Below are positions 3,490 through 28,764 of a DNA stretch of 64,000 nt, piece after piece. This stretch comes from Leucoraja erinacea. Its lineage: Eukaryota. The stretch lies in assembly GCF_028641065.1 (NCBI RefSeq), contig NW_026576614.1, forward strand, positions 1 through 64,000, written 5' to 3'. The translations under genes and the position numbers were made by a program. Every line of letters begins with the position of its first letter. Position 1 is the stretch's first letter. The notes under the pieces are model-generated. The model was not told where the DNA came from and made no database searches. It saw nothing but the letters and a program-made list of their open reading frames with translations.

Positions 3490-4582
3490 CGTTGCCTATT
3501 TCCTTCACTCCATAGATGTTGCTTCACCCGCTGAGTTTCTCCAGCATTTTTGTCTACCTTCGATGTTTCAGCATTTGCTGTTCATTCTTAAACATTGACA
3601 ACCCGGTGGTCAGCTTTTATGTACTTTAGTGTTCGCCCACTCTGTCCTCAGTAGCGAATGCTTCCCGAGAGATAGCGTCACATTATTACTGATATCTGAG
3701 AACTTCGTGCATTTATAGCGGCAACTGCAAACAATCAACTGCAGATGCTAGTTGACCAAGGATAGACATTGGTAATGGGTCGGATAGCATCCATGGAGAA
3801 CATGGATAGGTGACGTTTAGGTTCGGAGCTAAATCTGAAGAAGGGTCTCTAACCGAGTTTTCACCTACCCACGTGCTCCAGGGATGCTGCCTGAGCAGCG
3901 ATGTTACTCCGGCATTGCACGTCTTTCCTTACAATTATAGATCACGGCTGGGAGTTAATTGGCGAAATCAGTACGAGGTTGAGAGGTGAACCATGATCAC
4001 GTTGAATGGTCCAAGGATCGACTTCGGCTTATTTTTTGTCACGTAATTATGTTTCCCTCCCTCCGACATGTTGAATATTGCAGCGTCGGCAGCTTCAGAA
4101 TCCAACAACGTGCCCGGAATGCATCGGATTACAAACGGAACGGACAAAATTTGACGGATGGATCAGAGCGGATGAGTCCAGCTCCGTGTTTCAAGTGTGT
4201 GTGTGTGTGTGTGTTCGCGTGTGTGTCCCAGCCCCTCCCACAAATTTGACCAAAGAGCGGCGAGATTGTGCAACTAGCATCCAGAGGGGCTATAGGTGGG
4301 AAATGGGGAGTAGGATAAACACGTGAGGTTGCGATGGAGGTAGGAGAGACGGGACGCAGAATAGAGGGAGCGGCAGACGGCGGCAGGTGGGAGAGGGGGG
4401 AAGAGGTCGGTGCAGACACAGAGTGGGATTGATCAAGAGGAGCGGAATCAGCCGTTTGAGCGGAACTGGCTGTAGTTGTGTAAGGCGGCTCCTGATCGCC
4501 ACGTCTTTGCCCCAAACCCCTCAATGTACTGCGAGGATCCGAGTGAAAACAGACCAATGGAATCACACTGCAGTTTTTCCTC

Positions 4583-4588
4583 TTTATT
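4583..4588 (-). terminator. Probable polyadenylation signal AATAAA of IgL copy 1
   Basis: AATAAA ~275 nt after the C-exon stop; conserved in copy 2 at 25800-25805. Confidence 0.65.
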
Positions 4589-4862
4589 GAGAGCTGAGTT
4601 ACACCAGATCCAATCACAACACGGTTACTGTCTACAGGGGAATCTGCCCCCATTCTACAGACAGAGGCAGTAAGACACATAGAACTGGAGACAAATCTAC
4701 AACGAAATTCGCACAGATCTCTGAGATAATTACATATTCGTGTTGTTCCCAGAAGCGGACATTGCTATAGGTTACATTGCACAATGTGGCGGCAGACCAC
4801 AGTGAAGCTCTCTCTGTGTTAAACATAGCAGAGAATTGGCAGCCGATGCCAATGGCACGAAC

Positions 4863-5191
4863 TCAGTTCGCGCAAGCGGATGAGGAGACGGTGTGGCGGA
4901 GAGGCGAGCCCAGAGAGCTGTGGGCTACGCTGCAGGAATAGCTCGTGCCCTTGCCCCATGCGGCGGCGGGGACCCGCAGGTAACTGCTCAGCCTGTACGT
5001 CTGCTCGGCGTCCGGGGACACGGCGCCCGTCGTCACCCCGCTCTCCGTCTCCACGCCGTCCACGGCCCAGCGCAGCGCCACGAGGCCCGGCTTAAAGCCG
5101 CTCACCAGACAGCTGAGTGTGGCCGAGCCCGTGCCAGTTTCCTCCGGAGACGGAGGGAGCAGGAGAAGCGAGGGCTTCCGAGACTCGCTAC
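4863..5191 (-). CDS. IGL: Ig light chain copy 1, exon 3: constant domain (SSESRKPSLLLLPPS...TVSSSACAN*)
   Basis: Acceptor CCCACACAG|GT keeps phase 1; C1-set motifs ATLSCLV, LRW, YRLSSYL, YSCSVAH; C-terminal Cys present; the three exons total 741 nt = 246 aa + stop. Confidence 0.95.
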
Positions 5192-5317
5192 CTGTGTGGG
5201 GGAGAGAGGCGGAAGAGAAGAGAGGCATTGTTAGTTGATGGAGACCGCCGGCAGCGCCACACACTGACCCCAGCTCTGGAATTCGCTTGAATGTGAATTT
5301 GCGAATGTAGCTATTTT

Positions 5318-5592
5318 AGGAGATACAGCATGGAAACTGGCCCTTCGGCCCACCGAGTCCACACTGGCCATTTATCACCCGTTCACACTAGTTCTATGAT
5401 ATCCCGCTTCTCAACCACTCCCCGTACACTAGGGGCTATTCACCGCCGGGCAATTAACCTACAAACCCGCACGTCTTTGGGATGTGGGGGAAAACCGGAG
5501 CAGCCGGAGGAATCCCAGGGAGAACTTGCAACCTCCACACAGACAGCACCCGAGGTCAGGCTCGAATCGGGGAATCTGGCGCAGTGAGGCAA
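5318..5592 (-). mobile_element. tRNA-derived SINE (HE1 / V-SINE type) in the J-C intron
   Basis: Reverse complement of the SINE body at 17010; paralog at ~27180-27445. Confidence 0.75.
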
Positions 5593-6172
5593 CGTATCTA
5601 CCGTTGAGCCAATGTGCAGCAACCACTTTAAGGAGTTATGGCGGGAAGTACCGGTACCGGAGAGGCCTCCGGATATCCAACACTCCCTGTCAGGTGATGC
5701 AAGGGGAGCGGGGGGACGCAGCGCGGCTCCGCAAGCCATTGAGAGGTGGAGAGACGATGAAACGACCGGTTCATCCCGGATTCACCCCGAGCCCGCACCA
5801 ACACGTCCTTTCCCGCTACACTCTCTAGCCGACTCGCCCAACCCGCTGCCCGGTATTTTCCTCAATGTCTTTCATCAGAATGCCTGCAAATTGTCTTCCT
5901 TGTTTCCCCAACATTAACGCGTTTGATTGTCGCAAACTGCGGCTTGTGTAACGATGCAGGAATCCCCGCTGGCGGGAATACTCTCCCGACCGCTGACGTA
6001 CGGAGCGGACCCGATTGGGCAGAATGGCCTCCCGCGCCCAGTAGAGACAGAGCAAGTTTTTACGGCGCGCAGATACAAGTCCAGCGTTCCCGGACTGGGG
6101 ATGCACCGAGCGCCGGGGAATGAGAACGACTGCAAAGGGGATTCATGGGAACAGAACGAGGGAGTCACTTAC

Positions 6173-6532
6173 TATTTATTTCCAGGATAGTCCCAGGGCT
6201 GAAGATGAATCCCACATTATTTTCCCACACTGCACAGTAGTAGACGGCGGCGTCTCCGGGCTCCACGGTGCCGATGGTCAGGATGTAGCTGTTGGCGGAA
6301 GTATCTCTGGACGGTTGGAACCGGTCTGTGATCCCACTGCCACGGTATATATCATTATCCGTTTCATACGTTACCAACCACTTTGGACTCTCCCCGGGAC
6401 GCTGTCGATACCAATATACATGGTAACTTGCAACATTTCCATTCTGCATCCGACACTCTAAGCGGGCGGTCTGTGCCGCGGAGACGGGTCCGGAAGTTGG
6501 GGTTTGATTCAGGACTGGAATCGCCAGGAGAC
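6173..6532 (-). CDS. IGL: Ig light chain copy 1, exon 2: germline-joined VJ domain, type I / NS5 / sigma-cart class
   Basis: Acceptor TTGTTGAAG|GT, donor A|GTAAGT; 360 nt; V-set hallmarks LEC, WYRQRPG, DAAVYYC run directly into J motif FSPGTILEI with no RSS or spacer; resembles cartilaginous-fish type I L chains as recalled. Confidence 0.95.
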
Positions 6533-6927
6533 CTTCAACAAAACACAATAAAAACATTCATCAAAGCCTCAGAAATAAAAGATATTTATTTAGGAATGAG
6601 ATGGTGAAGAGTTTATTTCGTCCGAGGGAGGCGAATTAATTGCCACAGACGGCGGTTTAGGCCAAGTTAATGGATGTATCTCAGGCAGAGATAGATAGAT
6701 CCGTGTTTCGTTCGGGTGACAGGGGTTATGCGGAGAAAGCAGGAGAATGGGGTTAGGGGAAAGAGATAGATCAGCCGTGATTGAATGGCCGATCACTTAT
6801 GAACGGATGAAACGACTGGGTGATCTGGAGCCCACAGAAGGCTAAAGACGCGTAGAGCACCGATGATGGTGGAGATTTTAACGAGCCTCGTTGCACATAA
6901 TCAGTCGTGAACCAACCCGAGTCTCAC

Positions 6928-6979
6928 CTGTAGGGAGCAGCAGCAGCAGAGGCCACAGTAGGTGCAGCGCTGGGGCCAT
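6928..6979 (-). CDS. IGL: Ig light chain copy 1, exon 1 (leader peptide MAPALHLLWPLLLLLPT-G)
   Basis: ATG at 6979, hydrophobic signal peptide, 52 nt ending in phase-1 donor G|GTGAGA at 6927; identical in copy 2. Confidence 0.93.
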
Positions 6980-7085
6980 TCTTCCGGACAGGCGAGCAGC
7001 CAAGGTTCAGACCCACTCGAGTTGGTCTGCAAAGTCCGGTAGCCGCTCGGGTTCCAGTATCTGGAAACCAGAGCCTCTGGTTGTC

Positions 7086-7180
7086 TTTATTAACCGGAAT
7101 ATAATGAGTGGGAGGGGCTATGTAACCTGTGTGGGTGGAGACTGATTTCCGGCGCTTATAATCTGCTGATGGCAAATTAA
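7086..7180 (-). promoter_or_regulatory. Candidate IgL promoter: TATA-like TTAATAAA, ETS-type CCGGAAAT, octamer-like ATTTGCCAT
   Basis: Motifs at 7086-7093, 7145-7152 and 7169-7177, 110-200 nt upstream of the ATG; conserved in copy 2 (~28870-28965). Confidence 0.45.
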
Positions 7181-7469
7181 ATATCGTCGAATCCTTATTG
7201 AAATTAATTTATTAGCCAAGTATGTAAACATACACGGAATTTGATTTGCCAACAGTCATTCAAAAAAAACACCAAGATACATAACCACATACAAATTACA
7301 CGTAGACTTAAACAGCCACCACAGCGGTGTGTGAGAATCCACAGGGCCACAGCATAAGCGGAGACCCAAAGCCATCAGTTCAATGTCCTTCACCGTGATG
7401 TGACCAGAGTTGTACCGACCGCTGTCACTCTCTCTGCAGTCCCTGTCCGCCCGAACAGTCAGAAAGCCG

Positions 7470-7576
7470 TAGGTACACAAAAACGCTGGCGAAACTCAGC
7501 GGGTGTAGCAGCCTCTTTGGCAGCATCTATGGAGCGAATGAAATGGGCAAAGTTTCGGGCCGAAACCCTTCTTCAG
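7470..7576 (-). mobile_element. Solo Penelope-type terminal repeat with hammerhead core, upstream of the IgL promoter
   Basis: Matches the element end at 90-182; minus strand CTGAAGA-AGGG-TTTCGG-CCC-GAAAC; paralog ~29253-29360. Confidence 0.7.
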
Positions 7577-7870
7577 AAAGCCGTCCCGTCCACACTCGCA
7601 CACTACGGGATGTCCTCAGGGAGGCATGTCCCCGCAAAACACCGAGATCACCGCACTCTCGGCTCTCCCTCCGAGTCCTCACCAGTGCGGGCAGCACGTC
7701 CATCTTGTTTTTTCGGCGACCTCACATTCCCCACTGTGATGGAAGTCAAATAACTTATCCCTAATGTCCTCCTTTTCTCCCAGCTCCACGATGTTAAAGC
7801 CGCTGTGCAGAAGAGATACGTTGAAAAAGTCGCATCTCCGTCGGGGAAAGCCGTATATGACGGGTACAAT

Positions 7871-8694
7871 ACAGTATAATATAGATAAATGTGAGGTTAT
7901 CCACTTAGGCGGCAAAAACAAGGGGGCAGATTATTATCTCAATGGGGTTAGGTTAGGTAAGGGGGAAATACAGAGAGACCTGGGTGTCCATGTACACCGG
8001 TCACTGAAAGTTGGGTTACAGGTACAGCAGGCAGTGAAGAAAGCTAATGGGATGTTGGCCATCATAACAAGAGGATTTCAGTATAGGAGTAAAGAGGTTC
8101 TTCTGCAGTTGTATAGGGCTCTTGTGAGACCACATCTGGAGTATTGTGTACAGTTTTGGTCTCCTAATTTGAGGAAGGCCATCCTTGTGATTGAGGCAAT
8201 GCAGCGTAGGTTCACGAGATTGGTCCCTGGGATGGCGGGACTGTCATATGAGGAAAGATTGAAAATACTAGGCATGTATTCACTGGAGTTTAGAAGGATG
8301 AGGGAGGATCTTATAGAAACATATAAAATTATAAAAGGACCTGACAAGCCAGATGCAGGAACAATGTTCGCAATGTAGGGCGAGTCCAGAACCAGGGGCC
8401 AAAGTCTTAGAACAAAGGGGAGGTCATTTAAGACTGAGGTGAGAAAAAACGTTTTCACCCAGAGTTGTGAATTTATGGAATTCCCTGCCACAGAAGGCAG
8501 TGGAGGGCAATTCACTGGATGGATTTAAGAGAGAGTTAGATAGAGCTCTAGGGGCTAGTGGAATCAAGGGATATGGGGAGACGGCAGGCACGGGTTATTG
8601 ATTGGGGTTGATCAGGCATGATCACAATGAATGGCGGTGCTGGCTCGAAGGGCTGAATGGCCTCCTCCTGCACCTATTTTCTATGTTTCTATGT
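7871..8694 (+). mobile_element. CR1 LINE 3' fragment, (TTTCTATG)n tail
   Basis: ORF 7764-8378 carries the CR1 RT C-terminus; paralog ~29660-30481. Confidence 0.9.
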
Positions 8695-9904
8695 TATAGG
8701 TTCTGATTGTTAATCCTATGTGTGCCCCTTAACTTTATATACGTCTATTAGGAGTCCACGCAACCTCCAGCGTTCCAGAGAATGCAACCACGTAGCTCAA
8801 ATGTCCTACTGTAGTTGACAATCCAGGCATCGTCCTGCTGAATGGTTTATTGGAAGCTAATCCACACAGCCCCAGTACATCACTGCAGGAGTTCCTCGAA
8901 ATAGCGAGCAGAGCCCAACATTTACAGCAGTTTCACCATTCCCATCCACCCACCAGCCCATTCTGGGATCACATGGCAGTTGTATTCATTGTACTTTCCA
9001 TATCGAGTCGTAGAGCAGTGAACCCCTAGCCCTTCGGCCCACCTTGTCAACGCACGTTGGCGAGTCCCAGTGCATGCATTTAGCCCTCATCTTTCTAAAT
9101 CCTTTCAATCCACATAGCTGTTCAAATATATTTCGAAAGTCATTATTGTATCCGATTCTTGCCTTATAATGGAGTGTGGGGCAGGATCGGTGAACAACCA
9201 TTCGCATGTGCCATTAATCGCCTCTTTCCACAAAGAGTCTGTCCACCAAGCTGTGATATCCAATGGTACAGCACTGCAGAATCCTCCGCCATTAACACCC
9301 AGAGGCCATAAATTAAACCCGATCAATTAAATCAAGATGTGTAAATAATATTTCACACTGAGCGGGGTGGGTTTATGGAACGTGCTGCCAGATTAGATAG
9401 TTGAGGCAGAACGAGAGTCGAATTTCAAATTTTGTGACATCCTCCTATAATATTCGTACATGCACATGGATATGAAAGTTTCGGATAGATTTGGGCCCAA
9501 CGCAGGCAGGTGGGACGAGTGGAGAAGGGGCATCATGGTCGGCACAGCTCAGCCGAAGCGCCTGTGCTGTGTGACTCTGCGGCTCCATGACTAATGTTAC
9601 CCGATCCCAGGGACAAAGGCCTAAGGTGATATGGCGAGAGATTTGTTTCGGGTTAGGCCAAAGACGCTCCAGGAATCAGTAGTGTGTTGGGATGCAACCA
9701 CGTGGGTGAGTTGTCAACTCCCCTGTACTCCTGGACAACTTGAGCCCATCCCGACACACGGGTTGGATCTGCGCCACCAACATGAGAATCCATTCCTTAC
9801 GCCACTCGCGCATGGGCATTCAGCGTGAGGTGTTACATCAGAAATAAAGACATGGATATGACAATGCATTACTTTTCCCAGCAATCATCATACTCGTGGG
9901 CACC

Positions 9905-10150
9905 CAGCCGCAGTGGAGCAGCGGGTAGAGCTGCTGCCTCACAGCGCCAGACACCCGGGTTTCTGAACCGGGTGCTGTCTGTGTGGAGCTGTTTCTCCCT
10001 GTGTCCGCGCAAGTTTCCTCCCGGTGTTCCCGTTTCCTCCCACATCCCCCCCAAAATGCTGGTCTTTAGATAATGGAAGGGTAAGATAACATGGAACATG
10101 TGTGTACGAGTGATCTTTGGGCAGCCTGTTTCCGTATTGTTCCTTTAAAA
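9905..10150 (+). mobile_element. tRNA-derived SINE, degenerate
   Basis: tRNA-like head GCAGCGGGTAGAGCTGCTGCCTCACAGCGCCAGA plus shared central core; paralog ~31675-31920. Confidence 0.7.
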
Positions 10151-10529
10151 TAAAAAGCGCACAACGCAAACCATTCCCGCAGCAACCGTTCTCTGATTTT
10201 AGTTACACTACGGGCTTCGGTTTCACACTATTGTGGGCACCTTGTATAACTAATTACTAATTGATTGTATTATTGATTACTGTATATTTTCCCCGCGTTA
10301 ATACGTTAATAGGTGGATCAAGGTGCTAAAAGTGAGAATATCAACGTTCCTTTCCCTCTGCATTTGACCATTAAATACTATTAGGGCACGGGGTTCCTCG
10401 CGCCTCTGCTCGCCCTTGTTCAACGTGAAGGTGGCTGATCATTTACCCGAGTGCTGCCCTCCCGCACGAAACCCATCGCATCAATTCCCTTCACATCCAA
10501 CAATCTATCTAAAATCTCATTCAATCCAG

Positions 10530-10811
10530 AGCTGGCGTAGCAGTTGAGCTGCTGCAGGAAACCCGGGTTCGATACTGACTACGGGTGCTTGTCTGTACGG
10601 AATTAGTCCGTTCTCCCCATGTTCGTATGTTTTCCTCGCGATCTTTTGTTTCTCCCCACACTCCAAAAGCATAGAGATGTGTAGGTTAATTAGCTTGGTA
10701 TAAATGTAAATTGTCCCCAGTGTGTGTAGGATCGTGTAAGTGTGCGGGGATCGCTGGTCGGTGCGGACTCGGTGGGCCGAAGGGATGTGTCTCTAAAGAA
10801 AACTAACTAAA
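10530..10811 (+). mobile_element. tRNA-derived SINE (HE1 type)
   Basis: B-box GGTTCGATAC, central core, ACTAA-type tail; paralog ~32300-32580. Confidence 0.8.
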
Positions 10812-10985
10812 ATATGTATTGTATAAACCGAGCAACTGATTCTCCGGAGTCTAAAACGTCACCCCCCTCTGCGGGTGAGTTTATATTCCAGTCAGCCAGG
10901 GCAGACCACCCGGTCTGAGAGTGTGGTCTCTGGATCTGGAGATAGTTGACAGTGGGATTACACTCTCGCAGCACTAGAGATTATC

Positions 10986-12384
10986 ATAGAAACATTTAAA
11001 CATGGAAAATCGGTGCAGGAGTTGGCCATTAGGCAATTCGAGCCAGTATCGCCATTCAATGTGATCATGGCTGATCATCCATGCTCAGTGCCCCGTTCCT
11101 GCCTTCTCCCCATATCCCTTGATTCCGCTAAACCAAAGAGACGTTTCTTTTCAATGTATCCAGTGAATCGGCCTCCACTGCCTTTTGAGGCAGAGAATTC
11201 CACAAATTCACAACACTCTGGTGAAAACGTTTTTCCTCATCTCCGTTCTAAATGCGCTACCCTATATTCTTACACTCTGCCCCCTGGTTCTGGACTCCCC
11301 CAACATCGGGAACATGTTCTATGCGTCTAGCTCGTCCAATCCCTTTATAATTGTATATGGTTTTATAAGATCCTCTCTCATCCTTCTAAATTCCAGTAAA
11401 TGCAAGCCCAGTCCTCCCATTCTTTCATCATATGACAGTCCCGCCATCCCGGGAATTAACCTCGTGAAACTACGCTGCACTCAATAAGAAGAATGTCATT
11501 CCTCAGGAGACCAAAACTGCACGCAATACTCCAGGCGTGGTCTCACAAGGGCCCTGTACAACTACAGAAGGACCTCGTTGCTCCTATACTCAAATCCTCT
11601 CGTTATGAAGGCCTTTCTTCACTGCCTGCTGTACCTGCGTGCTTACTTTCAGTGACTGGTGTACAAGGACACCCAGGTCTCGTTGCACTTCCCCTTATCC
11701 TGCAATATTCTGACTACATTCAGATCGTAATCTGCCTTCTCGTTCTTGCCACCAAAGTGGACAAACTCACATTTATCCACATTATACTGCATCTGCCATG
11801 CATCTGCCCACTCACCCAACCTATCAAAGTCACCCTGCATCCTCATAGCATCCTCTTCACAGTTCACACTGCCACCAGCTTTGCGGCGTCTGCAAATTTG
11901 CTAATGTTACTTTTAATTCCTTCATCTAAATCATGTATATATATTGTTAATAGCTGCAATCCCAGCACCGAGCTTTGTGGCACCCCACTAGTTACTGCGT
12001 CTCATTCTGAAAGGGACACGTTAATTCCTACACTTTGTTTCCGGTCTGCCAACCAATGTTCTTTCCATGTCAATACCCTACCCCCAATACCATATGTTCC
12101 AATTGTGCCCACTAATCTCCTGTGTAGGACATTGTCAAATGCTTTCCGAAAGTCCAGATACACTACATCCACTGGCTCTCCCTTATCCATATTTGTTGAT
12201 ACATCCTTAACAAATTGCAGAAAATTGCTCAAACAAGATTTCCCCTTCATAAATCCATGGTGACTCGGTCAAATTCTGTTACTCCTATCCAAATGCGCCG
12301 CTATTACATTGCCTCCACCATCTTCCCCACCGCTGCTCTATAATTTCCTGTTTCCTCTCTCCCTCCTTTCTTAAAAAGTTGGAT
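10986..12384 (-). mobile_element. CR1 LINE, degraded RT region
   Basis: ORFs 11649-11867 and 12002-12250 (VDVVYLDFRKAFD); paralog ~32755-34141. Confidence 0.85.
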
Positions 12385-12407
12385 AACAGTAGCCCTCCTC
12401 CAATCCA

Positions 12408-13094
12408 AGGGGAGTTGCAACGAGACTTGGGTGTCATGGTACACCAGTCATTGAAAGTAGGCATGCAGGTGTAGCAGGCAGTGAAGAAAGCGAATGGTAT
12501 GTTAGCATTCATAGCAAAAGGAATTGAGTATAAGAGCATGGAGGTTCTACTGCAGTTGTACAGGGTCTTGGTGAGACCACACCTGGAATATTGCGTACAG
12601 TTTTGGTCTCCTAAGCTGAGGAAATACAATCTTGCATAGAGGGAGTACAGAGAAGGTTCACCAGACTGAGTCCTGAAATGGCAGGACTTTCATATGAAGA
12701 AAGACTAGATAGACTCGGCTTGTACTCGCTAAAATTTAGAAGATTGAGGGGGGCATCTTATAGAAACTTACAGAATTCTTAAGGGGTTGGACAGGCTAGA
12801 TGCAGGAAGATTATTCCCGATGTTGGGGAAGTCCAGAACAAGGGATCACAGTTTAAGGATAAGGGGGAAGTCTTTTAGGACCGAGATGAGAAAAACATTT
12901 TTTAACACAGACAGTGGTGAATCTGTGAGGCAGGTACATGATACTCAGTTTGATGATCAGCCATGATCATATGGAGAGAAGGCAGGTACAGGATACTCAG
13001 TTTGATGATCAGCCATGATCATATTGAATGGCGGCGCAGGCTCGAAGGGCCGAATGGCCTACTCCTGCACCTATTTTCTATGTTTCTATGTTTC
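12408..13094 (+). mobile_element. CR1 LINE 3' fragment
   Basis: RDLGVMVHQSLKVG homology and TTTCTATG tail; paralog ~34165-34900 retains ~110 nt deleted here. Confidence 0.85.
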
Positions 13095-14014
13095 TGAAAA
13101 TCTAGGTGCACAATTTCTACAGCTTCCCTTCTGTGGGTCAAGATCGGCCCTTCACAAAACCATACTGATTTCGGCCTATTTTATCATGAACTTCTAAGTA
13201 CTATATGACCTCATCCTTTATAATTGTCTGTAAAATCTTACCAACCACCGAAGTCAGGATAACCGGCCTCTCGATTCTGCTCTTCTAGTTTGCTCCCTTC
13301 TTGTATAGCGGGGTGATATTCGTGATATTCCAATCTTCAGAAACCACTCCCAACTCTACTGATTCTTTTAATATCACAACTAATGTTTCGACAATCTCTG
13401 AAGGCACCTCCTTCAGAACCCCGGTGCAATCCATCCAGTCCAGGAGACTTATCCACCCGGACTTTTCAATTGCGTTCCCACCAGTATCCCGTATAAACGC
13501 TGTATAACATTTGTACGTGTTACTCGATTGCCCCATGCTTTATTACCTGTTTGTGGTATTTGTTAACCGCCTATTATCTACGTGTAAGTCACCTGGACTT
13601 TTCACCAACACATTTCAAACTCTCACGTTAAATAGTACTCGGAATTTATATATTTAATACCGGGCTGAGAGATGCCCTCACGATTTAGCATCATTTTATT
13701 CCACCCGACCTATCCTTGCCTGTTTGGCTTTAACATCAACTCGGCCGCTTTGTATCTTTCTCGCAAGCCATCGGGGAGTCGGGAAACCTAGAGATATTGA
13801 ATGTATTCCTTGATCCAAACATGCTCATGTTGATTGTGAACAGCGGGAGCTCCGTCATCTCTGGCGTTGCTCCTGACACACGGCGCAAGAAAGTCAAAAT
13901 GCATCGCGTCTCTGGTTTCCAACTTTTATATTTAGTGCAGTACGGCACCAAACATGATTGCTGTAATTTTTGACAATGTATCTGTGGGTCTAAACCGAGC
14001 GTTTTGTTTGCATT

Positions 14015-14506
14015 TCTTCGATTATGGCAGCATGGGACCCATACACAAATAAAAACATTTCTTCCATCGAACGTGTCCAAAGACAGGCAGCTCGAATTGT
14101 TACTAACACCTATGAGAGAGAAGCGAGTGTCACCAAACTTCTGAATTCTCTGTGGTGGAACCCTCTCCATGACAGACGTGAAGCTCACCGTTTGACCTGT
14201 TTTTACATAATGTTAAATGGTCAGCTCGACATAGACTACAAGACCTACACCAAACCCAAACCAATTAGGAGCAGACGAGGGCATTCGATCCAATTTGTGT
14301 ACAGCAATTCGTTCTTCCCCCGCACAATTAAAGCATGGAATAATCTCCACCCATCTATAGTTACCCAACCAGATGCAACTAAATTTAAAGTAGCTCTTTC
14401 TTCCCAATAATCCTTTCTGGCTTAAGCCCTCCCTTCACCACCTCCAGTTTAAATTCCATTTGGAATATTTTGGAGGACCAAGAAACCAAGAACCAAGAAC
14501 CAAGAT
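14015..14506 (+). mobile_element. Divergent CR1/L2-group LINE 3' fragment with (CAAGAAC)n tail
   Basis: AWDPY..IERVQRQAAR..NSFFPRTIKAWNNL; tail CCAAGAAACCAAGAACCAAGAACCAAGA; paralog ~35555-36068. Confidence 0.75.
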
Positions 14507-14757
14507 TAGAAATCGCAGCATTTCTCCCAACAGAAGTAAAACTAAATAGCCTGCAACACTCTTTCTCTCTCGCCATGTCTAAACTGTTGCTCTCTCTCTC
14601 GCTCTCTGCCTTGCTCCTTATGTCTCCGTATTTCTTTGACCTCCCCCCCCACCCTTCTCTCTTTCTCGCTCTCTCTCTCCCACATACATTTCTCGTCCCG
14701 ACCTTTTCTTTCTCCCTCTCCCCTCTCTCTCTCCCCTCCCTCTCTCTCGCACCCCCC

Positions 14758-14789
<32 letters not shown>

Positions 14790-14854
14790 AGATTTATTAA
14801 ATCGTCTGCCATTTTATTGAGCCCGTTCGTGTGTTACCAAGAAGTATAACCAAG

Positions 14855-15293
14855 GACCGTATTTCTCGGGGGCCTAAAACTAAGCGGAAGCTCAGAGGGG
14901 ACCGTGCCTTTGCTGTGTCGGCACCCAAATTATGGAACGATCTGCCTGTCCACATTAAACAGGCCTCTTCTCTGTCTGTTTTTAATTCACTTCTTAAAAC
15001 CCATCTCTTCTCCGTGGCCTTTGATACCCAGTAAGATGTCGACTTTATTTACTTGATTTAATTTCTTTTTTGATTGCTTTATTGCGTGGTTATTATTTTT
15101 ACTCATGTTTTATGTGTTTTAATTTAATGTTGTATTTCATATGTAATTTTTGTGCTTTATGTGAGCTGTTATGTTATGTTCTGTTATGTTGTCTGTTTAT
15201 GATGTCTTGTTTATTCTTCTGTACAGCACTTTGGTCAACATTGGTTGTCTTAAAGTGCTTAACAAATAAAGTTGGATTGGATTGGATTGGATT
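14855..15293 (+). mobile_element. L2-clade LINE 3' end with (GGATT)n tail
   Basis: GDRAFAVSAPKLWNDLP..LKTHLFSVAF*, T-rich 3'UTR, AATAAA then GGATT repeats; paralog ~36430-36866. Confidence 0.8.
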
Positions 15294-15859
15294 TCTACAT
15301 TCTTTGACACAAAACCACCCATATGTCCCCTTTATTCCTGTTGTTAAACCCATAGAAGCCACGTGAATCCACAAAGCTCGCTCGCCACGGCAGACCTCGA
15401 AGATAGACACAAAACGCTGGAGTAACTCAGCGGGCCAGACAGCATCTCTGGAGAGAAGGAACGTATTCTAACCTCTCCCCCCTGACCGTACAGCACTCCG
15501 CTCTTATTTATATATATATTTAAAAACTCTTTGAACCTGTTTATTTCCAACTCCCGCGTGGCATCTACCGTCTCAACGTTTCCACTCCTCTTACCTACTC
15601 TAACCGCCCCCCGCCCCCTCTGAACATACAGCCCCCCGCTCTTATTTATATGTATTTGTTCTTTCGGACACAGACTGCACCCCGTCTCTCTGTATCACTC
15701 CAGCAATTCAAAGATGGTTTAACATAGACTGTGTTGTGTCCAGTGACGTTTAGGCCCAATATGGAGACGTTTGGCTCCGAGTGCCACTTCTCACGGGTTC
15801 CCCGGATGAAAATATTTCTAGTGTGGAACCTAATCATACAATGAACGTTACTAATGACA

Positions 15860-16165
15860 TATAACCATATAACCATATAACAATTACAGCACGGAAACAG
15901 GCCATCTCGACCCTTCTAGTCCGTGCCGAACACATATTCTCCCCTAGTCCCATATACCTGCGCTCAGACCATAACCTTCCATTCCCTTCCCGTCCATATA
16001 ACTATCCAATTTATTTTTAAATGATAAAAGCGAACCTGCCTCCACCACCTTCACTGGAAGCTCATTCCACACAGCCACCACTCTCTGAGTAAAGAAGTTC
16101 CCTCTCATGTTACCCCTAAACTTCAGTCCCTTAATTCTCGTCATGTCCCCTTGTTTGAATCTTCC
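15860..16165 (-). mobile_element. CR1 short 3' fragment (ATATGGTT tail)
   Basis: ORF 15944-16144 NFFTQRVVAVWNELP; paralog ~37431-37745. Confidence 0.85.
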
Positions 16166-17009
16166 CTTCTTCCCTATACTTCCCTAGCATGCGTTATGTG
16201 GATACGTTTGTCCCTTTTTAGATGATAGAGTCAAACAGCACGGAAACACACCCCTCGGCCCAGCTTGTCCATACTGATCGATGTGCACCCACTACACTAA
16301 TCCTACCTGCTTGAATTTGGCCCATGTCGATCCAAACATTCCCTATCCATGTACCTGTCAAAATTTAGTAATACTTGTTATAGTTTCTGCCTCAACTAAC
16401 GCCAACGGTAGCTCTTTTCATATACCCACCACACGCTGTGTGAAAAGGTTTCAGCGCGGAGTTCTATTAAGACGTTTCCCTGCCACCTTGAACCCGTCTT
16501 CTTAAATCTGCTCTAGGTATAATACTCTAGGTAAAATAAACTCTCCCCATAGATCAAGACTCAAGTCAGGGCAAAATCCTCGTAACCTTGCTGCACTCTT
16601 TCCATCTTAACATCGTCTTAGTATAGTGGGGCTACCAAAACTGCCAACAATACTTCAACTATGGTCTAACCAGTGCTGTGTACCGCTGCAAGGTAACATC
16701 CCAACTTCTATATCTAATAAAGAATGAATGATGAGGCCAATGTGTCCAAAACATACTTGACCATCTCATTTAGATGTGTCGCCACTTTCATGGAACTGTG
16801 TACCTTCACTCCTAAATGTCTGTGTTCTACAACAAAGCAGTACCATTTAATGCGCCGGTCCTGCTAAAACAGCAGCACCTCACATTTATATGCATTAAAC
16901 TACATTAACCATTTCGCAACCTACTTAAACAACAGTTAAATCGTTTCTGCCTCAACTAACTCTTCCAGTTAAGTATCGGGAGCACCGCATCCGTTGTCCT
17001 CAGCCCACG

Positions 17010-17315
17010 GACGCACAGTGTCGCAGTGGTGGAGTTGCTGCCGGAGTCCCGGGTTCGATCCCGACTACGGGTGCTGTCTGTACGGAGTTTGTACGTTCTC
17101 CCCGTGACCTGCATTGGTTTTCTCCGAGAACTTCGGTATCCTCCCACACTCCAAAGACGTACACGTGTGTAGGTTAATTGGCTTGGCACATGTAAACATT
17201 GCCCCTAGTGGGTGTAGGATAGTGTTAATATGCAGTGATCGCTGGTCGGCGCGGACCCGATGGGCCGAAGGGCTTGTTTCTGCGCTATATCTCTAAACTG
17301 AACGAATCTAAACTG
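17010..17315 (+). mobile_element. tRNA-derived SINE (HE1 type)
   Basis: A-box-like GTCGCAGTGGTGG, B-box GGTTCGATCC, central core; paralog ~38585-38889. Confidence 0.85.
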
Positions 17316-17609
17316 ATCAAGATATATAATAAAAAGGGGTATATGGCGACAGGTCGAGTACGGGTTGTTCTGAGAGCCAGTCGTCTATTCTGAGAAAAAC
17401 CGTTACACTTGGACAACTGTGTTTCGGTTTTCACCGTGACTCACCAACACCCTTCACCCCTTCACCATCTCTATACCGATGGATGGACAGTGCGATCATC
17501 ATGAGTGAAGTTTCATCCAGTTAATTATCGGGAGCACAGCACCCATTGTCCTCAGTCCAACACAGTACCCCACCCCGACCCAGACCCAGGAATTGAGGCA
17601 GAAATGAGG

Positions 17610-17889
17610 CAGAATTAAGGGACCGAAGTTTAGGGGTAACATGAGGGGGAACTTCGTTACTCAGAGAGTGGTAGCGGTGGGGAATGAGCTTCCAGTGGGA
17701 GTGGTGGAGGCAGGTTCGTTGGTATCATTTAAAAATAAATTGGATAGGCATATGGATGAGAAGGGAATGGAGGGTTATGGTATGAGTTCAGGCAGGTGGG
17801 ACTAAGGGAAAAAAAGTTGTTCGGCACGGTCTTGTAGGCCGAGATGGCCTGTTTCCGTGCTGTAATTGTTATATGGTTATATGGTTATA
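17610..17889 (+). mobile_element. CR1 short 3' fragment (ATATGGTT tail)
   Basis: Reverse complement of the family at 2741; paralog ~39185-39461. Confidence 0.85.
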
Positions 17890-18734
17890 ACCTCCCTCCT
17901 GCAGCCCCACAAGCACCAACACCTCCGCTTCGCCTCATTCACAAATAATGGTTCACAAATGTAACCGCGGCCGCCATGAACGTTCCTTCCTTCGCTGAGA
18001 TAGTCGTGAGCTCTAGAGGTTTCTTAACCTCTGCACCTCCCTGTGTTCCAGTGATATACTCTTTGAGACCACATTTAAAATGCAACTTTTGGCTCTGACG
18101 AGGTATAACTTCCCACTCAATTATATCTAAATATGTGCAAAGTTTCAAGTAGTTCACAGACATGGGTGACGAAAGTTAAATTCTAGACACATTTTCGAAG
18201 CTCGGCCCATAGCTTACAATCAAATGTGACTTGCCTGGTATGCCAACTTGGTCGCAGGGGTAAGGTGACCTGAAAGGCCTGTTCATGTGCAGTACTGCTC
18301 TATAATTGAATAACTGGTCTCAATGAAAAACGCTGTTTATCCGGTTGGAATTTCTTACTTCACTACATAAGTCTTTGCACCCCGACCATCTCCATATATA
18401 TATATTTACACTTCTCTAGCCATTCAGCGAGACTTACGGCACATACAATATCGGTATGCAGCATTAAACTCGGCGTCCTGTCTTTCCTTATTCTTGACAC
18501 CCAAACTGCAGCTCCCACCTTCTCTTCAATCATCAACCCCAATGAAATGGCTTCACCCAATCCCTCAGACACCCATTTCACATCAAGATCTTTTGTGTGG
18601 GCATTCATAGAATTATTTGTGAGAATCCTTTGTTATAACTCACATCAAGTGTGGCTGATTAATGAAACGATCAATAAATGCTCACGTTTTAACGAAATAA
18701 AGCCCTGGCTTTAATAGGACTATTCACAAACCGG

Positions 18735-21700
18735 TGATAGACACAAATGTTGGAGAAACTTAGCGGGTGAGGCAGCATCTATGGAGGAAGGATATAGGCA
18801 ACGTTTCTTCAGACTGATGTGAGGGTGGGGTGGGGGGAGGGGGGGAGCGGGAAGAAAAAATGAAAAGGCGAGACAGTGATCTATGAAATGACAGTGAAAT
18901 GAAAAGCTATCGCCAAGCCTACGCTTGGTCTAACCGATGTAGAGCTGCTGACACCCAGAGCAGCGGGTGTAATAGATGAGGTTGGAGGAGGTGCAGGTGA
19001 ACCTCTGCCGCTCCTGGAAAGACTGCTTGGGACCTTTAATGGAGTCAAAATGGAGGTAAAGCGACAAGTGTGCCATTTCCTGCAGTTGCAAGGGAAAGTA
19101 CCGGGAGATGGGGCGGTTTGGGTGGGAAGGGACGAATTTAACAGGGAGTTACGGAGGGAGTGGTCTCCGCGGAAAGCAGACAGGGGAGGAGATGGGTAGA
19201 TGTGGCCAGTGGTGGGATCCCGTTGTAAGTGGCGAAAATGTCGGAGAATTATTTGTTGTACGTGACGGCTGGTAGGTGGAAGGTGAGGGCAAGGGGGACT
19301 CTGCCCTTGTTACGAGTAGGGGTATGAGGAATGAGAGCAGAGTTACGGGGTATAGAAGATACCCTAGTGAGAGCGTCGTCTATAGTAGAAGAGGGGAACC
19401 CTCGTTCCCTGATCAATTAGGACATCTCCGATGCCCTGGTGTGGAACACCTCATAGAAACATAGAAATTAGGTGCAGGAGTAGGCCATTCGGCCCTTCGA
19501 GCCGGTACCGCCATTCAATATGATCATGGCTGATCATCCAACTCAGTATCCCGTACCTGCCTTCTCTCCATACCCTCTGATCCCCTTGGCCAAAAGGGCC
19601 ACATCTAACTCCCTCTTAAATATAGCCAATGAACTGGCCTCAACAACCCTCTGTGGCAGAGAGTTCCAGAGATTCACCACACTCTGTGTGAAAATAGTTC
19701 TCCTCATCTCGGTTTTAAAGGATTTCCCCCTTATCCTTAAGCTGTGACCCCTTGTCCTGGACTTCCCCAACATCGGGAACAATATTTCTGCATCTAGCCT
19801 GTCCAACCCCTTAAGAAATTTGTAAGTTTCTATAAGATCCCCTCTCAATCGCCTAAATTCTAGAGAGTATAAACCAAGTCTATCCAGTCTTTCTTCATAA
19901 GACAGTCCTGACATCCCAGGAATCAGTCTGGTGAACCGTCTCTGCACTCCCTCTATGGCAATGATGTCCTTCCTCAGATTTGGAGACCAAAACGGTACGC
20001 AATACTCCAGGTGTGGTCTCACCAAGACCCTGTACAACTGCAGTAGAACCTCCCTGCTCCTATACTCAAATCATTTTGCTATGAAAGCCAACATACCATT
20101 CGCTTTCTTTACTGCCTGCTGCACCTGCATGCCTACCTTCAATGACTGGTGTACCATGACACCCAGGTCTCGCTGCATCTCCCCCTTTCCCAATCGGCCA
20201 CCATTTAGATAATAGTCTGCTTTCCTGTTTTTGCCACCAAAATGGATAACCTCACATTTATCCACATTATACTGCATCTGCCAAACATTTTCCCACTCAC
20301 CCAGCCTATCCAAGTCACCTAGCTGTCTCCTAGCATCCTCCTCCTCACAGCTAACACTGCCCCCCAGCTTAGTGTCATCCGCAAACCTGGAGATATTGCC
20401 TTCAATTCCCTCATCCAGATCATTAATATATATTGTAAATAGCTGGGGTCCCAGCACTGAGCCTTGCGGTACCCCACTAATCACTGCCTGCCATTGTGAA
20501 AAGGACCCGTTTACTCCTACTCTTTGCTTCCTGTTTGCCAGCCAGTTCTCTATCCACATCAATACTGAACCCCCAATGCCGTGTGCTTTAAGTTTGTATA
20601 CTAATCTCTCATGTGGGACCTTGTCGAAAGCCTTCTGGAAGTCCAGATACACCACATCCACTGGTTCTCCCCTATCCACGCTACTAGTTACATCCTCGAA
20701 AAATTCTATAAGGTTCGTCAGACATGATTTACCTTTCGTAAATCCATGCTGACTTTGTCCAATGATTTCACCACTTTCCAAATGTGATGCTATCCCATCT
20801 TTAATAACTGACTCTAGCAGTTTCCCCACTACCGATGTTTGACTAACTGGTCTGTAATTCCCCATTTTCTCTCTCCCTCCCTTCTTAAAAAGTGGGGTTA
20901 CGTTTGCTACCCGCCAATCTTCAGGAACTACTCCAGAATCTAAAGAGTTTTGAAATATTATTACTAATGCATCCACTATTTCTGGAGCTACTTCCTTAAG
21001 TACTCTGGGATGCAGCCTATCTGGCCCTGGGGATTTATCGGCCTTTAATCCATTCAATTTACCCAACACCACTTCCCGACTAACCTGGATTTCACTCAAT
21101 TCCTCCAACTCCTTTGACCCGCGGGCCCCTGCTATTTCCGGCAGATTATTTATGTCTTCCTTTGTGAAGACGGAACCAAAGTAGTTATTCAATTGGTCCG
21201 CCATATCCTTGTTCCCCATGCTCAACTCACCTGTTTCTGACTGCAAGGGACCTACATTTGTTTTAACTAATCTCTTTCTTTTCACATATCTATAAAAACT
21301 TTTGCAGTCAGTTTTTATGTTCCCTGCCAGTTTTCTTTCCTAATCCATATTTCCTTTCCTAATTAAGCCCTTCGTCCTCCTCTGCTGGTCTCTGAATTTC
21401 TCCCAGTCCTCCGGTATGCTGCTTTTTCTGGCTAATTTGTACGCATTATCCTTCGCTTTGATACTATCCCTGATTTCCCTTGTTATCCACGGATGCACTA
21501 CCTTCCCTGATTTATTCTTTTGCCAAACTGGGATGAACAATTTTTGTAGTTCATCCATGCAGTCTTTAAATGTCTTCCGTTGCATATCCACCGTCAACCC
21601 TTTTAGAATTAATTGCCAGTCAATCTTGGCCAATTCACGTCTCACACCCTCAAAGTTACCTTTCTTTAAGTTCAAAACCATTGTTTCTGAATTAACAATG

Positions 21701-22505
21701 TCACTCTCCATCCTAATGAAGAACTCAACCATATTATGGTCACTCTTGCCAAAGGGGGCACGCACAACAAGACTACTAACTAACCCTTCCTCATTACTCA
21801 ATACCCAGTCTAAAATAGCCAGCTCTCTCGTTGGTTCCTCTACATGTTGATTTAGATAACTATCCCGCATACATTCCAAGAAATCCTCTTCCTCAGCACC
21901 CCTGCCAGTTTGATTCACCCAATCTATATGTAGATTGAAGTCACCCATTATAACTGCTTTGCCTTTGTCGCATGCATTTCTAATTTCTTGTTTGATACCA
22001 TCTCCAACTTCACTACTACTGTGAGGTGGCCTGTATACAACACCCACCAGCGTTTTCTGCCCGTTAGTGTTTCGCAGCTCTACCCATACCGATTCCACAT
22101 CCTCCAAACTGCGTGCAGATGCGGCGTTGACGGAGGAATTGGGAGTAGGTGATGGAGTCCGTACAGGAAGCAGGGTGGGAAGAAGTGTAATCCAGATAGC
22201 CAAGGCAATCAGTGGATTTATAGTAGGTCGGTCAGTAAGTAGATGTATTGACCGACACCCACTGACTCCCATGGCTATCTTGACTACATTTCTCCAATTT
22301 CAGGTAGTCCCTGCTTTCTCCTCTCCTTCTCAACTCTCCCTCAGCATGTCTTCGCCTCTTCCTTTCTTCTCCTCCCCCCCCCACACCTCCCTCTCACATC
22401 TGTGTGAAGAAGGATCTCGACCCGAAACGTTGCCTATTGCCTTCGCTCCATGGATGCTGCCTCACCCGCTGAGTTTCACCAGCATTTTTGTTTACCTTGG
22501 ATTTT
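18735..22505 (-). mobile_element. Penelope-like element, unit-2 paralog, split by a CR1
   Basis: 18735-19452 and 22089-22505 align with 88-965 and 2385-2740/3490-3560; internal deletion in the endonuclease region. Confidence 0.8.
19453..22088 (-). mobile_element. CR1 LINE, most of ORF2 (APE and RT), relatively young
   Basis: ORFs 21340-22272 (VYRPP, GDFN, SDH), 20071-21285 (YLDFQKAFD, PQGSVLGP, FADD) and 19543-20037; absent from unit 1 (empty site CCTCATCCTGCG at ~2421). Confidence 0.95.
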
Positions 22506-26088: not shown

Positions 26089-26407
26089 TCAAGCGGATGA
26101 AGAGACGGTGTGGCGGAGAGGCGAGTCCAGAGAGCTGTGGGCTACGCTGCAGGAATAGCTCGTGCCCTTGCCCCATGCGGCGGCGGGGACCCGCAGGTAA
26201 CTGCTCAGCCTGTACGTCTGCTCGGCGTCCAGGGACACGGCGCCCGTCGTCACCCCGCTCTCCGTCTCCACGCCGTCCACGGCCCAGCGCAGCGCCACGA
26301 AGCCCGGCTTAAAGCCGCTCACCAGACAGCTGAGTGTGGCCGAGCCCGTGCCAGTTTCCTCCGGAGACGGAGGGAGCAGGAGAAGCGAGGGCTTCCGAGA
26401 CTCGCTA
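26089..26407 (-). pseudogene. IGL: IgL copy 2 constant exon (damaged)
   Basis: 5 substitutions plus a 1-nt deletion versus copy 1 (hand count); ends TVSSSA*. Confidence 0.85.
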
Positions 26408-26619
26408 CTGTGTGTGTGTGGGGTGGGGGGGGGGGGGGGGGGGGGGGGGGGGAGGCGGAGGAGGAAGAGAGGCATTGTTAGTTGATGGAGACCGCCGGCA
26501 GCGCCACACACTGACCCCAACGCCAGAGAAACGAACTCGGCCACGGAAAGTGGCACTGACTGGGCGGTGCAGCGGTAGAGCAACTGTCTTACAACGCCAG
26601 AGAGCCGGTCGGATCCTAA

Positions 26620-26872
26620 ATATAGGTGCTTGTTTGTTCGGTTTGGACGTTTATCACCGTGGCCGCGTGGATTTTCTAGGAGATATTAGGTTTCCTCCCA
26701 CACTCCCAAGACGTACGGTTGTGTAGGTTCATTGACTTGGTATCAATTTAAACTTATCCCTAGTGTTTGTAGGGTAGTAAGTGTTCGTTTGCGGGGATCT
26801 TTGTTCGGTGTGGACTCGGTGGCCGAAGAGCCTGTGTTCGCGCTGTATCTTATAAGCTAGAACTCAAACTAA
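26620..26872 (+). mobile_element. tRNA-derived SINE in the J-C intron of copy 2 only
   Basis: Central core and tail similar to 17010; lies in block 26520-27130, which is missing from copy 1. Confidence 0.65.
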
Positions 26873-27984
26873 AAGACCATCGATGACGCGAACAATTCGT
26901 GAAACCTGCGGCAAAGGACGCGGCTATTCAACCCAGCAGGTCTAAGCCGGCTAATGAAGACTGGCGCAGGTAAATCGCAGCTGCCGCCTTGCAGCCAACA
27001 TCAGGTCGAGAGCTCCAGGCCCACATGAGTAACATGGCACCGGCACCGGCCCCGGCCCCGTCCCTCCACCCGGCGCCGCTCGCCTTTACGTCGCTCTGTC
27101 GGGACGACTTAATTACGGGGTTCAATAATTCCCCAGCTCTGGAATTCGCTTGAATGTGAATTTGCGAATGTTGCTATTTTAGGAGATACAGCATGGAAAC
27201 TGGCCCTTCGGCCCACCGAGTCCACACTGACCATTTTTTCACCCGCTCACACTAGTTCTATGATATCCCGCTTCTCAACCACTCCCCGTACACTGGAGGC
27301 AATTCACCGCCGGGCAATTAACCTACAAACCCGCACGTCTTTGGGATGTGGGGGAAACCGGAGCAGCCGGAGGAATCCCAGGGAGAACTTGCAATCTCCA
27401 CACAGACAGCACCCGAGGTCAGGTTCCAATCTGGCGCAATGAAGCTACGTATCTACCGTTGAGCCAATGTGCAGCTGACATTTTAAGGGGTTATGGCGGG
27501 AGGTACCGGTACCACCATCCAACACTCCCTGTCAAGTGATGCAAGGGGAGCGGGGGGACGCAGCGCGGCTCCGCAAGCCATTGACAGGTGGAGAGACGAG
27601 GAAGCGACCGGTTCATCCCGGGTTCACCCCGAGCCCGCACCAACACGTCCTTTCCCGCTACACTCTCTAGCCGACTCGCCCAACCCGCTGCCCGGTATTT
27701 TACTCAATGTCTTTCATCAGAATGCCTGCAAATTGTCTTCCTTGTTTCCCCAACATTAACGCGTTTGATTGTCGCAAACTGCGACTTGTGTTAACCATGT
27801 AGGAATCCCCGCGGGCGGGAATACTCTCCTGATCGCTGACGTACGGCGCGGACCCGATGGGCAGAATGGCCTCCCGCGCCCAGTAGAGACAGAGCAAGTT
27901 TTTTTCCGCAGCGCCGATACAAGTCCGGGGAATGAGAACGACTGCAAGGCGGATTCGTGGGAACAGAACGAGGGAGTCACTTAC

Positions 27985-28344
27985 TCTTTATATCCAGGAT
28001 AGTCCCAGGACTGAAGATGTATCCCATGCCGCTTTCCCACACTACACAGTAGTAGACGGCGGCGTCTCCGGGCTCCACGGTGCCGATGGTCAGGGTGTAG
28101 CTGTTGGCGGAAGTATCTCTGGACGGTTGGAACCGGTCTGTGATCCCACTGCCACGGTATATATCATTATCCTTTTCATACGTTAACAACCACTTTGGAC
28201 TCTCCCCGGGACGCTGTCGATACCAACGTGCATGGTAACTTGCAACCTTTGTGTTCTGCATCCGACACTCTAAGCGGGCGGTCTGTGCCGCGGAGACAGG
28301 TCCGGAAGTTGCGGTTTGATTCAGGACTGGAATCGCCAGGAGAC
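27985..28344 (-). CDS. IGL: IgL copy 2 germline-joined VJ exon
   Basis: 360 nt, open frame, both splice sites intact; CDR3-J reads CVVWESGMGYIFSPGTILDIK. Confidence 0.92.
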
Positions 28345-28712
28345 CTTCAACAAAACACAATAAAAACATTCATCAAAACCTCAGAAATAAAAGATATTCA
28401 TTTAGGAATGAGGTGGTGAAGAGTTTCTTTCGTCCGAGGGAGGCGAATCAGTTAATGCATGTATCTCAGGCAGAGATAGATAGATCCGTGTTTCGTTCGG
28501 GTGACAGGGGTTATGCGGAGAAAGCAGGAGAATGGGGTTAGGAGAAAGAGATAGATCAGCCGTGATTGAATGGCCGATCACTTATGAACGGATGAAACGA
28601 CTGGGTGATCTGGAGCCCACAGAAGGCTAAAGACGCGTACAGCTCCGATGATGGTCGAGATTTTAACGAGCCTCGTTGCACATAATCAGTCGTGAACCAA
28701 CCCGAGTCTCAC

Positions 28713-28764
28713 CTGTAGGGAGCAGCAGCAGCAGAGGCCACAGTAGGTGCAGCGCTGGGGCCAT
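28713..28764 (-). CDS. IGL: IgL copy 2 leader exon
   Basis: 52 nt identical to copy 1 leader, GT donor at 28712. Confidence 0.9.

What the first reader, a model, noticed from the sequence alone, without database searches (positions are those of the whole stretch)
4863..6979. Antibody light-chain gene with V and J already joined in genomic DNA
Seen: V runs in frame into J (YYCAVWENNVGFIFSPGT) with no RSS or intervening DNA, while the leader intron and J-C intron are both retained and contain TEs. Inference: the join occurred at DNA level, not through a processed mRNA. Two paralogs share the joined state and CDR3 length, which argues for a germline rather than a B-cell-derived join. Established: cartilaginous fish carry Ig genes as multiple clusters, and skate type I (NS5 / sigma-cart) L chains are germline-joined. 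Striking biology, but known at family level.
Basis: partly seen in the sequence, partly recalled or inferred. Interest (0 to 1): 0.75.

Follow-up and report, generated by a model that had tools for sequence, protein, structure and literature searches.

The report
Known pre-joined skate antibody light chain
This is an intact skate antibody light-chain gene whose V and J pieces are already fused in the genome sequence, very likely inherited that way so that B cells would express it without cutting and pasting DNA; the arrangement was published for this gene family in skates in 1995 and the protein is already in RefSeq, so it is striking but ordinary.

Summary
Observation confirmed. The minus strand holds a three-exon light-chain gene: leader 6979-6928, fused VJ 6532-6173, C 5191-4863. 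It gives a 741-nt CDS, keeps both introns and has no RSS. The 246-aa product is identical to RefSeq XP_055487192.1 (Leucoraja erinacea) and 234/246 identical to GenBank 'type I immunoglobulin light chain' AAA87170.1. The C-domain tree places it with type I (sigma-2/sigma-cart/NS5). All 3 type I clusters found in this genome are joined, while two clusters of another light-chain class on C29 are split, with a canonical 12-RSS. Contigs of a DNA-type run bridge the join; those of a related species label show both splices. Anderson 1995 (abstract) reported at least 89 skate type I clusters, none unjoined. Additions here: the tandem copy at 26.1-28.8 kb looks defective (frameshifting C acceptor, stop at the terminal Cys), the copies differ 18% in CDRs against 2.6% in frameworks, CDRs look mosaic, and only 3 clusters are assembled. 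None of the 8 earlier scan notes shown bears on it. Already known; low interest.

The parts
6928..6979 (-). Leader exon, coding part (MAPALHLLWPLLLLLPT), phase-1 donor GTGAGA
   Evidence: spliced leader-to-V contigs in runs X20 and X3; X20 contig extends the 5' UTR to at least 7020
6533..6927 (-). Leader intron, 395 nt, with dispersed repeat pieces at about 6560-6790
6173..6532 (-). Fused VJ exon, 360 nt, V-set domain; J motif FSPGT; no RSS
6204..6233 (-). CDR3 (AVWENNVGFI, 10 residues between Cys and Phe); V/J join inferred near 6204
   Evidence: position inferred from shark gene models that read V up to ...AGYI-HS, likely through the heptamer
5192..6172 (-). J-C intron, 981 nt, with a dispersed repeat at about 5320-5620
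   Evidence: spliced J-to-C contig end in X3
4863..5191 (-). C exon, coding part, C1-set domain with penultimate Cys (SACAN*)
4583..4588 (-). Polyadenylation signal AATAAA
7169..7177 (-). ATTTGCCAT, an octamer-like word with one extra base, followed by TTATAA, about 190 nt upstream of the ATG; no canonical octamer within 500 nt
   Evidence: sequence; octamer scan; any promoter role is inference
26089..28764 (-). Tandem paralog B: leader 28764-28713, joined VJ 28344-27985, C 26407-26089; C acceptor one base short and TGA in place of the penultimate Cys codon; likely pseudogene or non-covalent chain
   Evidence: protein identical in the aligned V to RefSeq model XP_055487193.1
3686..39650 (.). 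Tandem segmental duplication carrying the two clusters (3686-18076 matches 25268-39650, offset about 21.6-21.8 kb, 1.7% substitutions in non-coding flanks)

Best explanation
This is one cluster of the skate type I (sigma-2 / sigma-cart / NS5) antibody light chain, with V and J fused in frame in the genome sequence and both introns kept; the fusion is very likely inherited, likely made by RAG-type recombination in a germ cell of an ancestor, and B cells would express the gene by transcription and two splices alone. Mechanism, step by step: (1, inferred) an ancestral V-RSS...RSS-J cluster, like the split type I clusters of horn shark, was recombined in the germline and the spacer with both RSS was lost; (2, shown) the joined cluster was duplicated, here as a roughly 21.7-kb tandem unit, and repeats sit in the introns; (3, shown for one pair) copies diverge mainly in the CDRs (16/87 nt against 7/273 in framework and J), (inferred) through selection and exchange between clusters; (4, shown in a related species label, not for this exact locus) leader-VJ-C is spliced at the predicted sites; (5, from established knowledge) the chain pairs with an IgM or IgW heavy chain through its penultimate Cys, its CDR3 fixed by the genome and changed only by hypermutation.
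For: Gene anatomy. Identity 246/246 to XP_055487192.1, 234/246 and 235/246 to GenBank skate type I chains AAA87170.1 and AAA87171.1. C tree: 96/91 support with skate type I inside a 21-row type I clade (98/96) apart from C25 and C29 classes. 3 of 3 type I V, C and junction matches in G000 are joined. Split clusters with 12-RSS and a J about 390 nt away on C29. Two X1 contigs and one X3 contig bridge the join with 31 or more letters each side; no listed loose end is an RSS. Both splice joints in X3, leader joint in X20. PMC2192082 abstract: at least 89 type I clusters, none found unjoined, expressed. PMC2193156 passages: type I split in horn shark, joined in skate; RAG-like germ-cell joining argued for NS4.
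Against: Tissue of origin is unknown for the assembly and all runs; X1 may be the assembly's own sample. No listed contig of X1, X3 or X13 carries this copy's exact CDR3 bases (all differ at 6218), although the WENNVG junction occurs in Logan proteins P0056 and P0057. X13's best piece has only 26 letters on the J side and X10 does not cover the join. No read fell on the V or C exon in 3 of 3 raw RNA runs of the same species label (1-5% of each read, tissue unknown). No canonical octamer upstream. The RAG step cannot be shown for this join: no split skate type I sister was found for comparison. Only 3 clusters were found, against at least 89 published.
Confidence: 0.95

Rival explanations
1. 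The join is somatic: the assembly captured a rearranged B-cell allele.
For: Tissue unknown; this copy's exact CDR3 bases were not among the listed contigs of X1, X3 or X13.
Against: All 3 type I clusters are joined and two sit in one tandem duplication with the same CDR3 length; C29 clusters in the same assembly are unrearranged; joined models exist in a second skate genus; 11 of 12 V-bearing members of the cluster have the same 10-residue CDR3; PMC2192082 abstract.
Confidence: 0.02
2. The gene is a relic of the never-split ancestral VJ exon from before the RAG transposon entered, not a re-joined gene.
For: No RSS remnant and no split sister in this genome; PMC2193156 raises this question and calls the direction for skate type I probable but not conclusive.
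Against: Skate copies nest inside the type I clade with shark chains that are reported split in horn shark and mostly split in nurse shark; independent RSS insertion at the same place would be needed. Batoid models show at least two CDR3 lengths (8 and 10), as separate joins would give.
Confidence: 0.02
3. The locus is a processed retrocopy of a rearranged mRNA or an assembly artefact.
For: The window is an unplaced, repeat-rich contig with a recent duplication.
Against: Both introns, splice sites, upstream region and 3' region are present and shared with the paralog; public-run contigs run from V through J into the intron; copy B's junction is seen in two DNA-type studies.
Confidence: 0.01

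Closest known systems
Skate (Raja/Leucoraja erinacea) type I light-chain clusters, Anderson et al. 1995 (PMC2192082; abstract and reference list seen, body not held); GenBank AAA87170.1, AAA87171.1; RefSeq XP_055487192.1
   Same: Same isotype, all clusters germline-joined, differences concentrated in CDRs, expressed; protein identical to the RefSeq model and 95% identical to the GenBank chains.
   Different: Only 3 clusters are found in this assembly against at least 89 reported; for the one pair compared here pN/pS in CDRs is about 1.2 (13/67.8 against 3/19.2), so the published excess of replacements is not reproduced from this pair alone.
Nurse shark germline-joined NS4 (kappa) genes, Lee et al. 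2000 (PMC2193156; passages and one discussion section seen)
   Same: VJ fused in germline DNA with introns kept; some joined genes are pseudogenes, as copy B seems to be.
   Different: Different isotype; there joined genes are about 10% of the family and have split sisters and an octamer; here all found are joined and no canonical octamer was found.
Nurse shark sigma-2 (NS5) germline-joined chain, partner of IgM1gj (PMC5192425 and PMC4279169; passages seen)
   Same: Same isotype, pre-determined CDR3.
   Different: Nurse shark has two split loci beside one joined and one pseudogene; pairing partner and age of expression were not tested for this skate gene.
Cartilaginous-fish lambda (type II / NS3) clusters
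   Same: Germline-joined VJ-C clusters; 11 of 11 C25 loci examined in this genome are joined.
   Different: Separate clade in V and C trees, 38-50% identity; the lambda label for C25 is inferred from the all-joined state and recalled motifs.

Membership tests
Immunoglobulin light-chain gene | Leader, one V-set VJ domain and one C1-set domain, phase-1 introns, open spliced frame | tested here: met
   246 aa
Immunoglobulin light-chain gene | C-terminal Cys for the bond to the heavy chain, no transmembrane exon | tested here: met
   ends SACAN* with AATAAA 275 nt later; copy B lacks the Cys
Type I / sigma-2 / sigma-cart / NS5 isotype | C and V group with named type I chains, apart from other light-chain classes | tested here: met
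   92% V identity to 'type I immunoglobulin light chain'; C tree 96/91 and 98/96; V tree groups it with skate type I (86/98) but its deep forks are open
Germline-joined Ig cluster | V and J contiguous and in frame in genomic DNA, no RSS, introns kept | tested here: met
   positive control on C29
Germline-joined Ig cluster | Joined state present in non-lymphoid or germ-cell DNA | tested here: inconclusive
   DNA-type runs show joined contigs only, but tissues are not given and X1 may be the source sample; published for the family
Germline-joined Ig cluster | Join made by RAG in germ cells (coding-end processing traceable to a split ancestor) | not testable with these tools
   no split type I sister in G000; no shark genomic DNA available here
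Expressed light-chain cluster | Spliced transcript of this locus | tested here: inconclusive
   family members spliced at the same sites in organism B and full-length Logan proteins 95-98% identical; none identical to this copy; 3 raw RNA runs blank on exons
Processed retrocopy | Introns lost | tested here: not met
   395-nt and 981-nt introns present

The most novel reading that the evidence does not exclude
Skate type I light chains descend from one ancient join shared with stingrays and mantas (CDR3 WESGVG-type in skate, Hemitrygon, Hypanus and Mobula records), and their diversity now comes from block-wise exchange of CDRs between a small number of pre-joined clusters, so that germline gene conversion stands in for V(D)J recombination; the published count of 89 clusters would then partly reflect alleles and mosaics.
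Probability: 0.2. Interest if true: 0.5.

Novelty: already known. Interest (0 to 1): 0.15.

Why it matters
Germline-joined antibody genes are a real exception to the rule that antibody genes must be assembled in each B cell, and they are the main evidence that RAG can act in germ cells. That was established for this isotype in skate in 1995 and discussed in 2000, and this protein is annotated. What the window adds is a worked genomic example: a tandem pair with one intact and one decaying copy, a CDR-focused divergence that can be measured against its own flanks, and a large gap between assembled (3) and published (at least 89) cluster numbers, which a long-read study could settle.

Tried and rejected
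RSS remnants: none in gene A; two lax chance-level hits in gene B away from the join. Processed pseudogene: rejected, introns kept. Tandem-mutation signature of shark hypermutation in the germline: 11 of 23 VJ substitutions are adjacent against 11 of 173 in flanks (p 1.5e-6), but once the CDR clustering is held fixed the excess is marginal (11 against 6.3 expected, p 0.04); not claimed. Positive selection from the A/B pair: pN 0.19 against pS 0.16 in CDRs; not shown. CDR windows were drawn by eye after seeing the sequences, so the CDR p-values are optimistic. Expression in the same species label: no RNA holder listed and no exon reads in X22-X24; no evidence either way. Contig depths were not used as copy numbers. 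The PDB searches gave only generic antibody hits. Five literature searches listed no paper that describes the genomic layout of skate type I clusters in a modern assembly; subscription papers are not searched, and the body of PMC2192082, which holds the term 'gene conversion' twice, could not be read, so CDR mosaicism may already be discussed there. No supplements were consulted. The Atlas look-up for the C8 family gave no result. Earlier scan notes: 8 of 52 shown, none about Ig light chains.

Full report
What is there. The minus strand of 4863-6979 holds a three-exon gene. An exhaustive GT/AG search gave two open 741-nt splice solutions; the one with the consensus J donor (A|GTAAGT, 6173) and C acceptor (CACAG|G, 5191) gives a 246-aa chain, leader-V-J-C, ending SACAN*, with AATAAA at 4588-4583. 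Pfam calls the domains V-set and C1-set. V runs into J with no spacer. No RSS was found in 4500-7300 at lax settings, and only one weak 22-spacer match (24769) in the whole window at strict settings. Both introns hold dispersed repeats.

What it is. A search of longer proteins gave 49 hits among 208 candidates, all from cartilaginous fish; the closest was 'type I immunoglobulin light chain [Leucoraja erinacea]', 92% over the V. Its cluster of 13 includes XP_055487192.1, identical to this protein at 246 of 246 residues, and XP_055487193.1, the model of the paralog. In the C tree the gene groups with the two GenBank skate type I chains and an Amblyraja model (96/91), inside a 21-row clade with horn shark, dogfish and ray chains (98/96), apart from the C25 and C29 light-chain classes; the V tree agrees on nearest neighbours but its deep forks are open and long branches meet. 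Type I, NS5, sigma-cart and sigma-2 are one isotype (PMC5192425 and PMC4279169, passages).

Is the join germline? In G000, the V search scored 150 of 220 candidates and gave 147 matches, of which 3 have 60% identity or more (two in the window, one on C1206). The C search gave 45 matches of 148 scored, 3 at 89% or more, at the same places. A DNA search across the join gave 3 of 3, all contiguous, and the translations show all three joined with a 10-residue CDR3. These counts are lower bounds. As a control, two clusters on C29 are split, with CACAGTG-12-ACAAAAACT behind V and a CACTGTG-led J about 390 nt on, so the assembly does hold unrearranged light-chain genes and the scan sees an RSS. Of 4 runs laid on 6060-6640, two X1 contigs (6060-6262, 6113-6262) and one X3 contig (6170-6282) bridge the join; X13 has a piece with only 26 letters on the J side plus loose ends that continue as copy B's junction; X10 does not cover it. 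No listed loose end is an RSS (2 loose ends and 56 pieces were not shown). Against my reading: none of these contigs has this copy's exact CDR3 bases (X1 and X13 read the WETDVG variant or copy B), tissues are unknown, and X1 may be the source sample. The WENNVG junction does occur in Logan proteins P0056 and P0057. The abstract of PMC2192082 reports at least 89 type I clusters in skate and none unjoined (body not held).

Is it expressed? In X3 (organism B) loose ends at 6170 and 6534 are the start of the C exon and the end of the leader exon, that is, both predicted splices; X20 has a leader-V spliced contig and a C-plus-3'UTR contig. Seven full-length Logan proteins of the cluster are 245-246 aa; the six of equal length match at 233-240 of 246. 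None is identical to this copy. Three raw RNA runs of the same species label gave no V or C exon reads (1-5% of each read), which says nothing without the tissue. No canonical octamer lies within 500 nt upstream of A, B or the C1206 gene.

The paralog. A tandem duplication (3686-18076 against 25268-39650) carries copy B. Its C acceptor reads CACAG|TAGC, one base short; with the consensus donor all three nearby AGs give a stop by residue 165-167, and only the weaker donor 4 nt downstream restores the frame; TGA replaces the penultimate Cys codon. B is likely a pseudogene or gives a chain without the heavy-chain bond; the acceptor lies beside a long C run and was not checked against reads. B's VJ is real in two DNA-type studies.

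How the copies diverge. A and B differ at 173 of 10,037 flank positions (1.7%), 7 of 273 in framework and J (2.6%) and 16 of 87 in CDRs (18.4%; Fisher p 2.3e-6, windows drawn by eye). pN and pS are both raised in CDRs (0.19, 0.16), and changes come in blocks, only marginally beyond what CDR clustering gives (p 0.04). Among five non-Logan records (A, B, two GenBank, one Amblyraja model) CDR2 and CDR3 states occur in all four combinations (for example positions 54 and 104), which fits exchange between clusters but also recurrent change, somatic mutation or PCR chimeras; Logan contigs can be chimeric and were not relied on. The WESGVG-type 10-residue CDR3 is shared by Amblyraja, Hemitrygon, Hypanus and Mobula records, and an 8-residue WDSGYIF type by rays and all 10 dogfish records in length; genomic contiguity of those records was not checked, so an old shared join is a lead only.

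Mechanism and comparison. Most likely an ancestral split cluster was recombined in a germ cell by RAG (inferred; argued for nurse shark NS4 in PMC2193156, passages and one section), fixed, and multiplied; B cells then need only transcribe and splice it. It works like, and is a member of, the published skate type I germline-joined clusters. Features not shown here are germ-cell DNA, the RAG step and expression of this exact copy.

Verdict. Observation confirmed, interpretation supported, already known. Interest 0.15. The most novel reading left open, CDR exchange among few, anciently joined clusters, has probability about 0.2.

Noticed in passing
G000:C8:16.48-17.22 Mb (L004-L006, L008-L013, L015, L016, L019-L022, L027): A tandem family of at least 16 V-type exons, 38-45% identical to this V, that run into a J-like strand and a splice donor (CTVWGDIRGNGTQLNVT, CSVWSYIYGAGSQLNVT); only L005 gave a lax RSS-like hit. 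In the V tree they fall among type I light-chain V domains on long branches. In L004 the V continues into a long Asn/Gly-rich open frame (853 aa). Possibly non-rearranging receptors related to a joined VJ exon.
   Followed up: partly
G000:C1206:23611-27900 (L043): Second type I subgroup, joined and apparently intact (CAVRETNTAYHFGGGT), V 60% and C 89% identical to the window gene, with an Amblyraja counterpart (P0048); a spliced-type contig of this subgroup appears in X3.
   Followed up: partly
G000:C29:17.43 and 17.45 Mb (L046, L047): Two inverted, split V-J-C light-chain clusters with canonical 12-RSS after V but a degenerate nonamer before J; likely the sigma class (label recalled).
   Followed up: partly
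G000:C25:22.3-22.99 Mb (L007, L014, L017, L018, L023-L026, L028-L030): Array of about 19 lambda-like VJ-C clusters; 11 of 11 examined are joined, one (L026) has a stop in V.
   Followed up: partly
G000 as a whole: Only 3 type I clusters found, all on small contigs, against at least 89 in PMC2192082: assembly collapse or an over-count in the old PCR-based survey.
   Followed up: no
window 7740-8694, 19450-22300, 24000-25260, 49249-54291, 48504-49016, 57429-58181: The rest of the window is mobile-element debris: many broken reverse-transcriptase LINE pieces, one longer LINE-like element with endonuclease and RT frames at 49.2-54.3 kb, and a Tc1-like transposase piece at 48.5-49.0 kb (labels recalled from motifs). 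No other host gene was seen.
   Followed up: no
window 47434-47885 and 60773-62523: Long degenerate G/A-rich tandem tracts; the second ends at the N run 62525-62690.
   Followed up: no
window 26520-27130: Copy B carries about 610 extra bases in its J-C intron that copy A lacks, partly another repeat copy.
   Followed up: no
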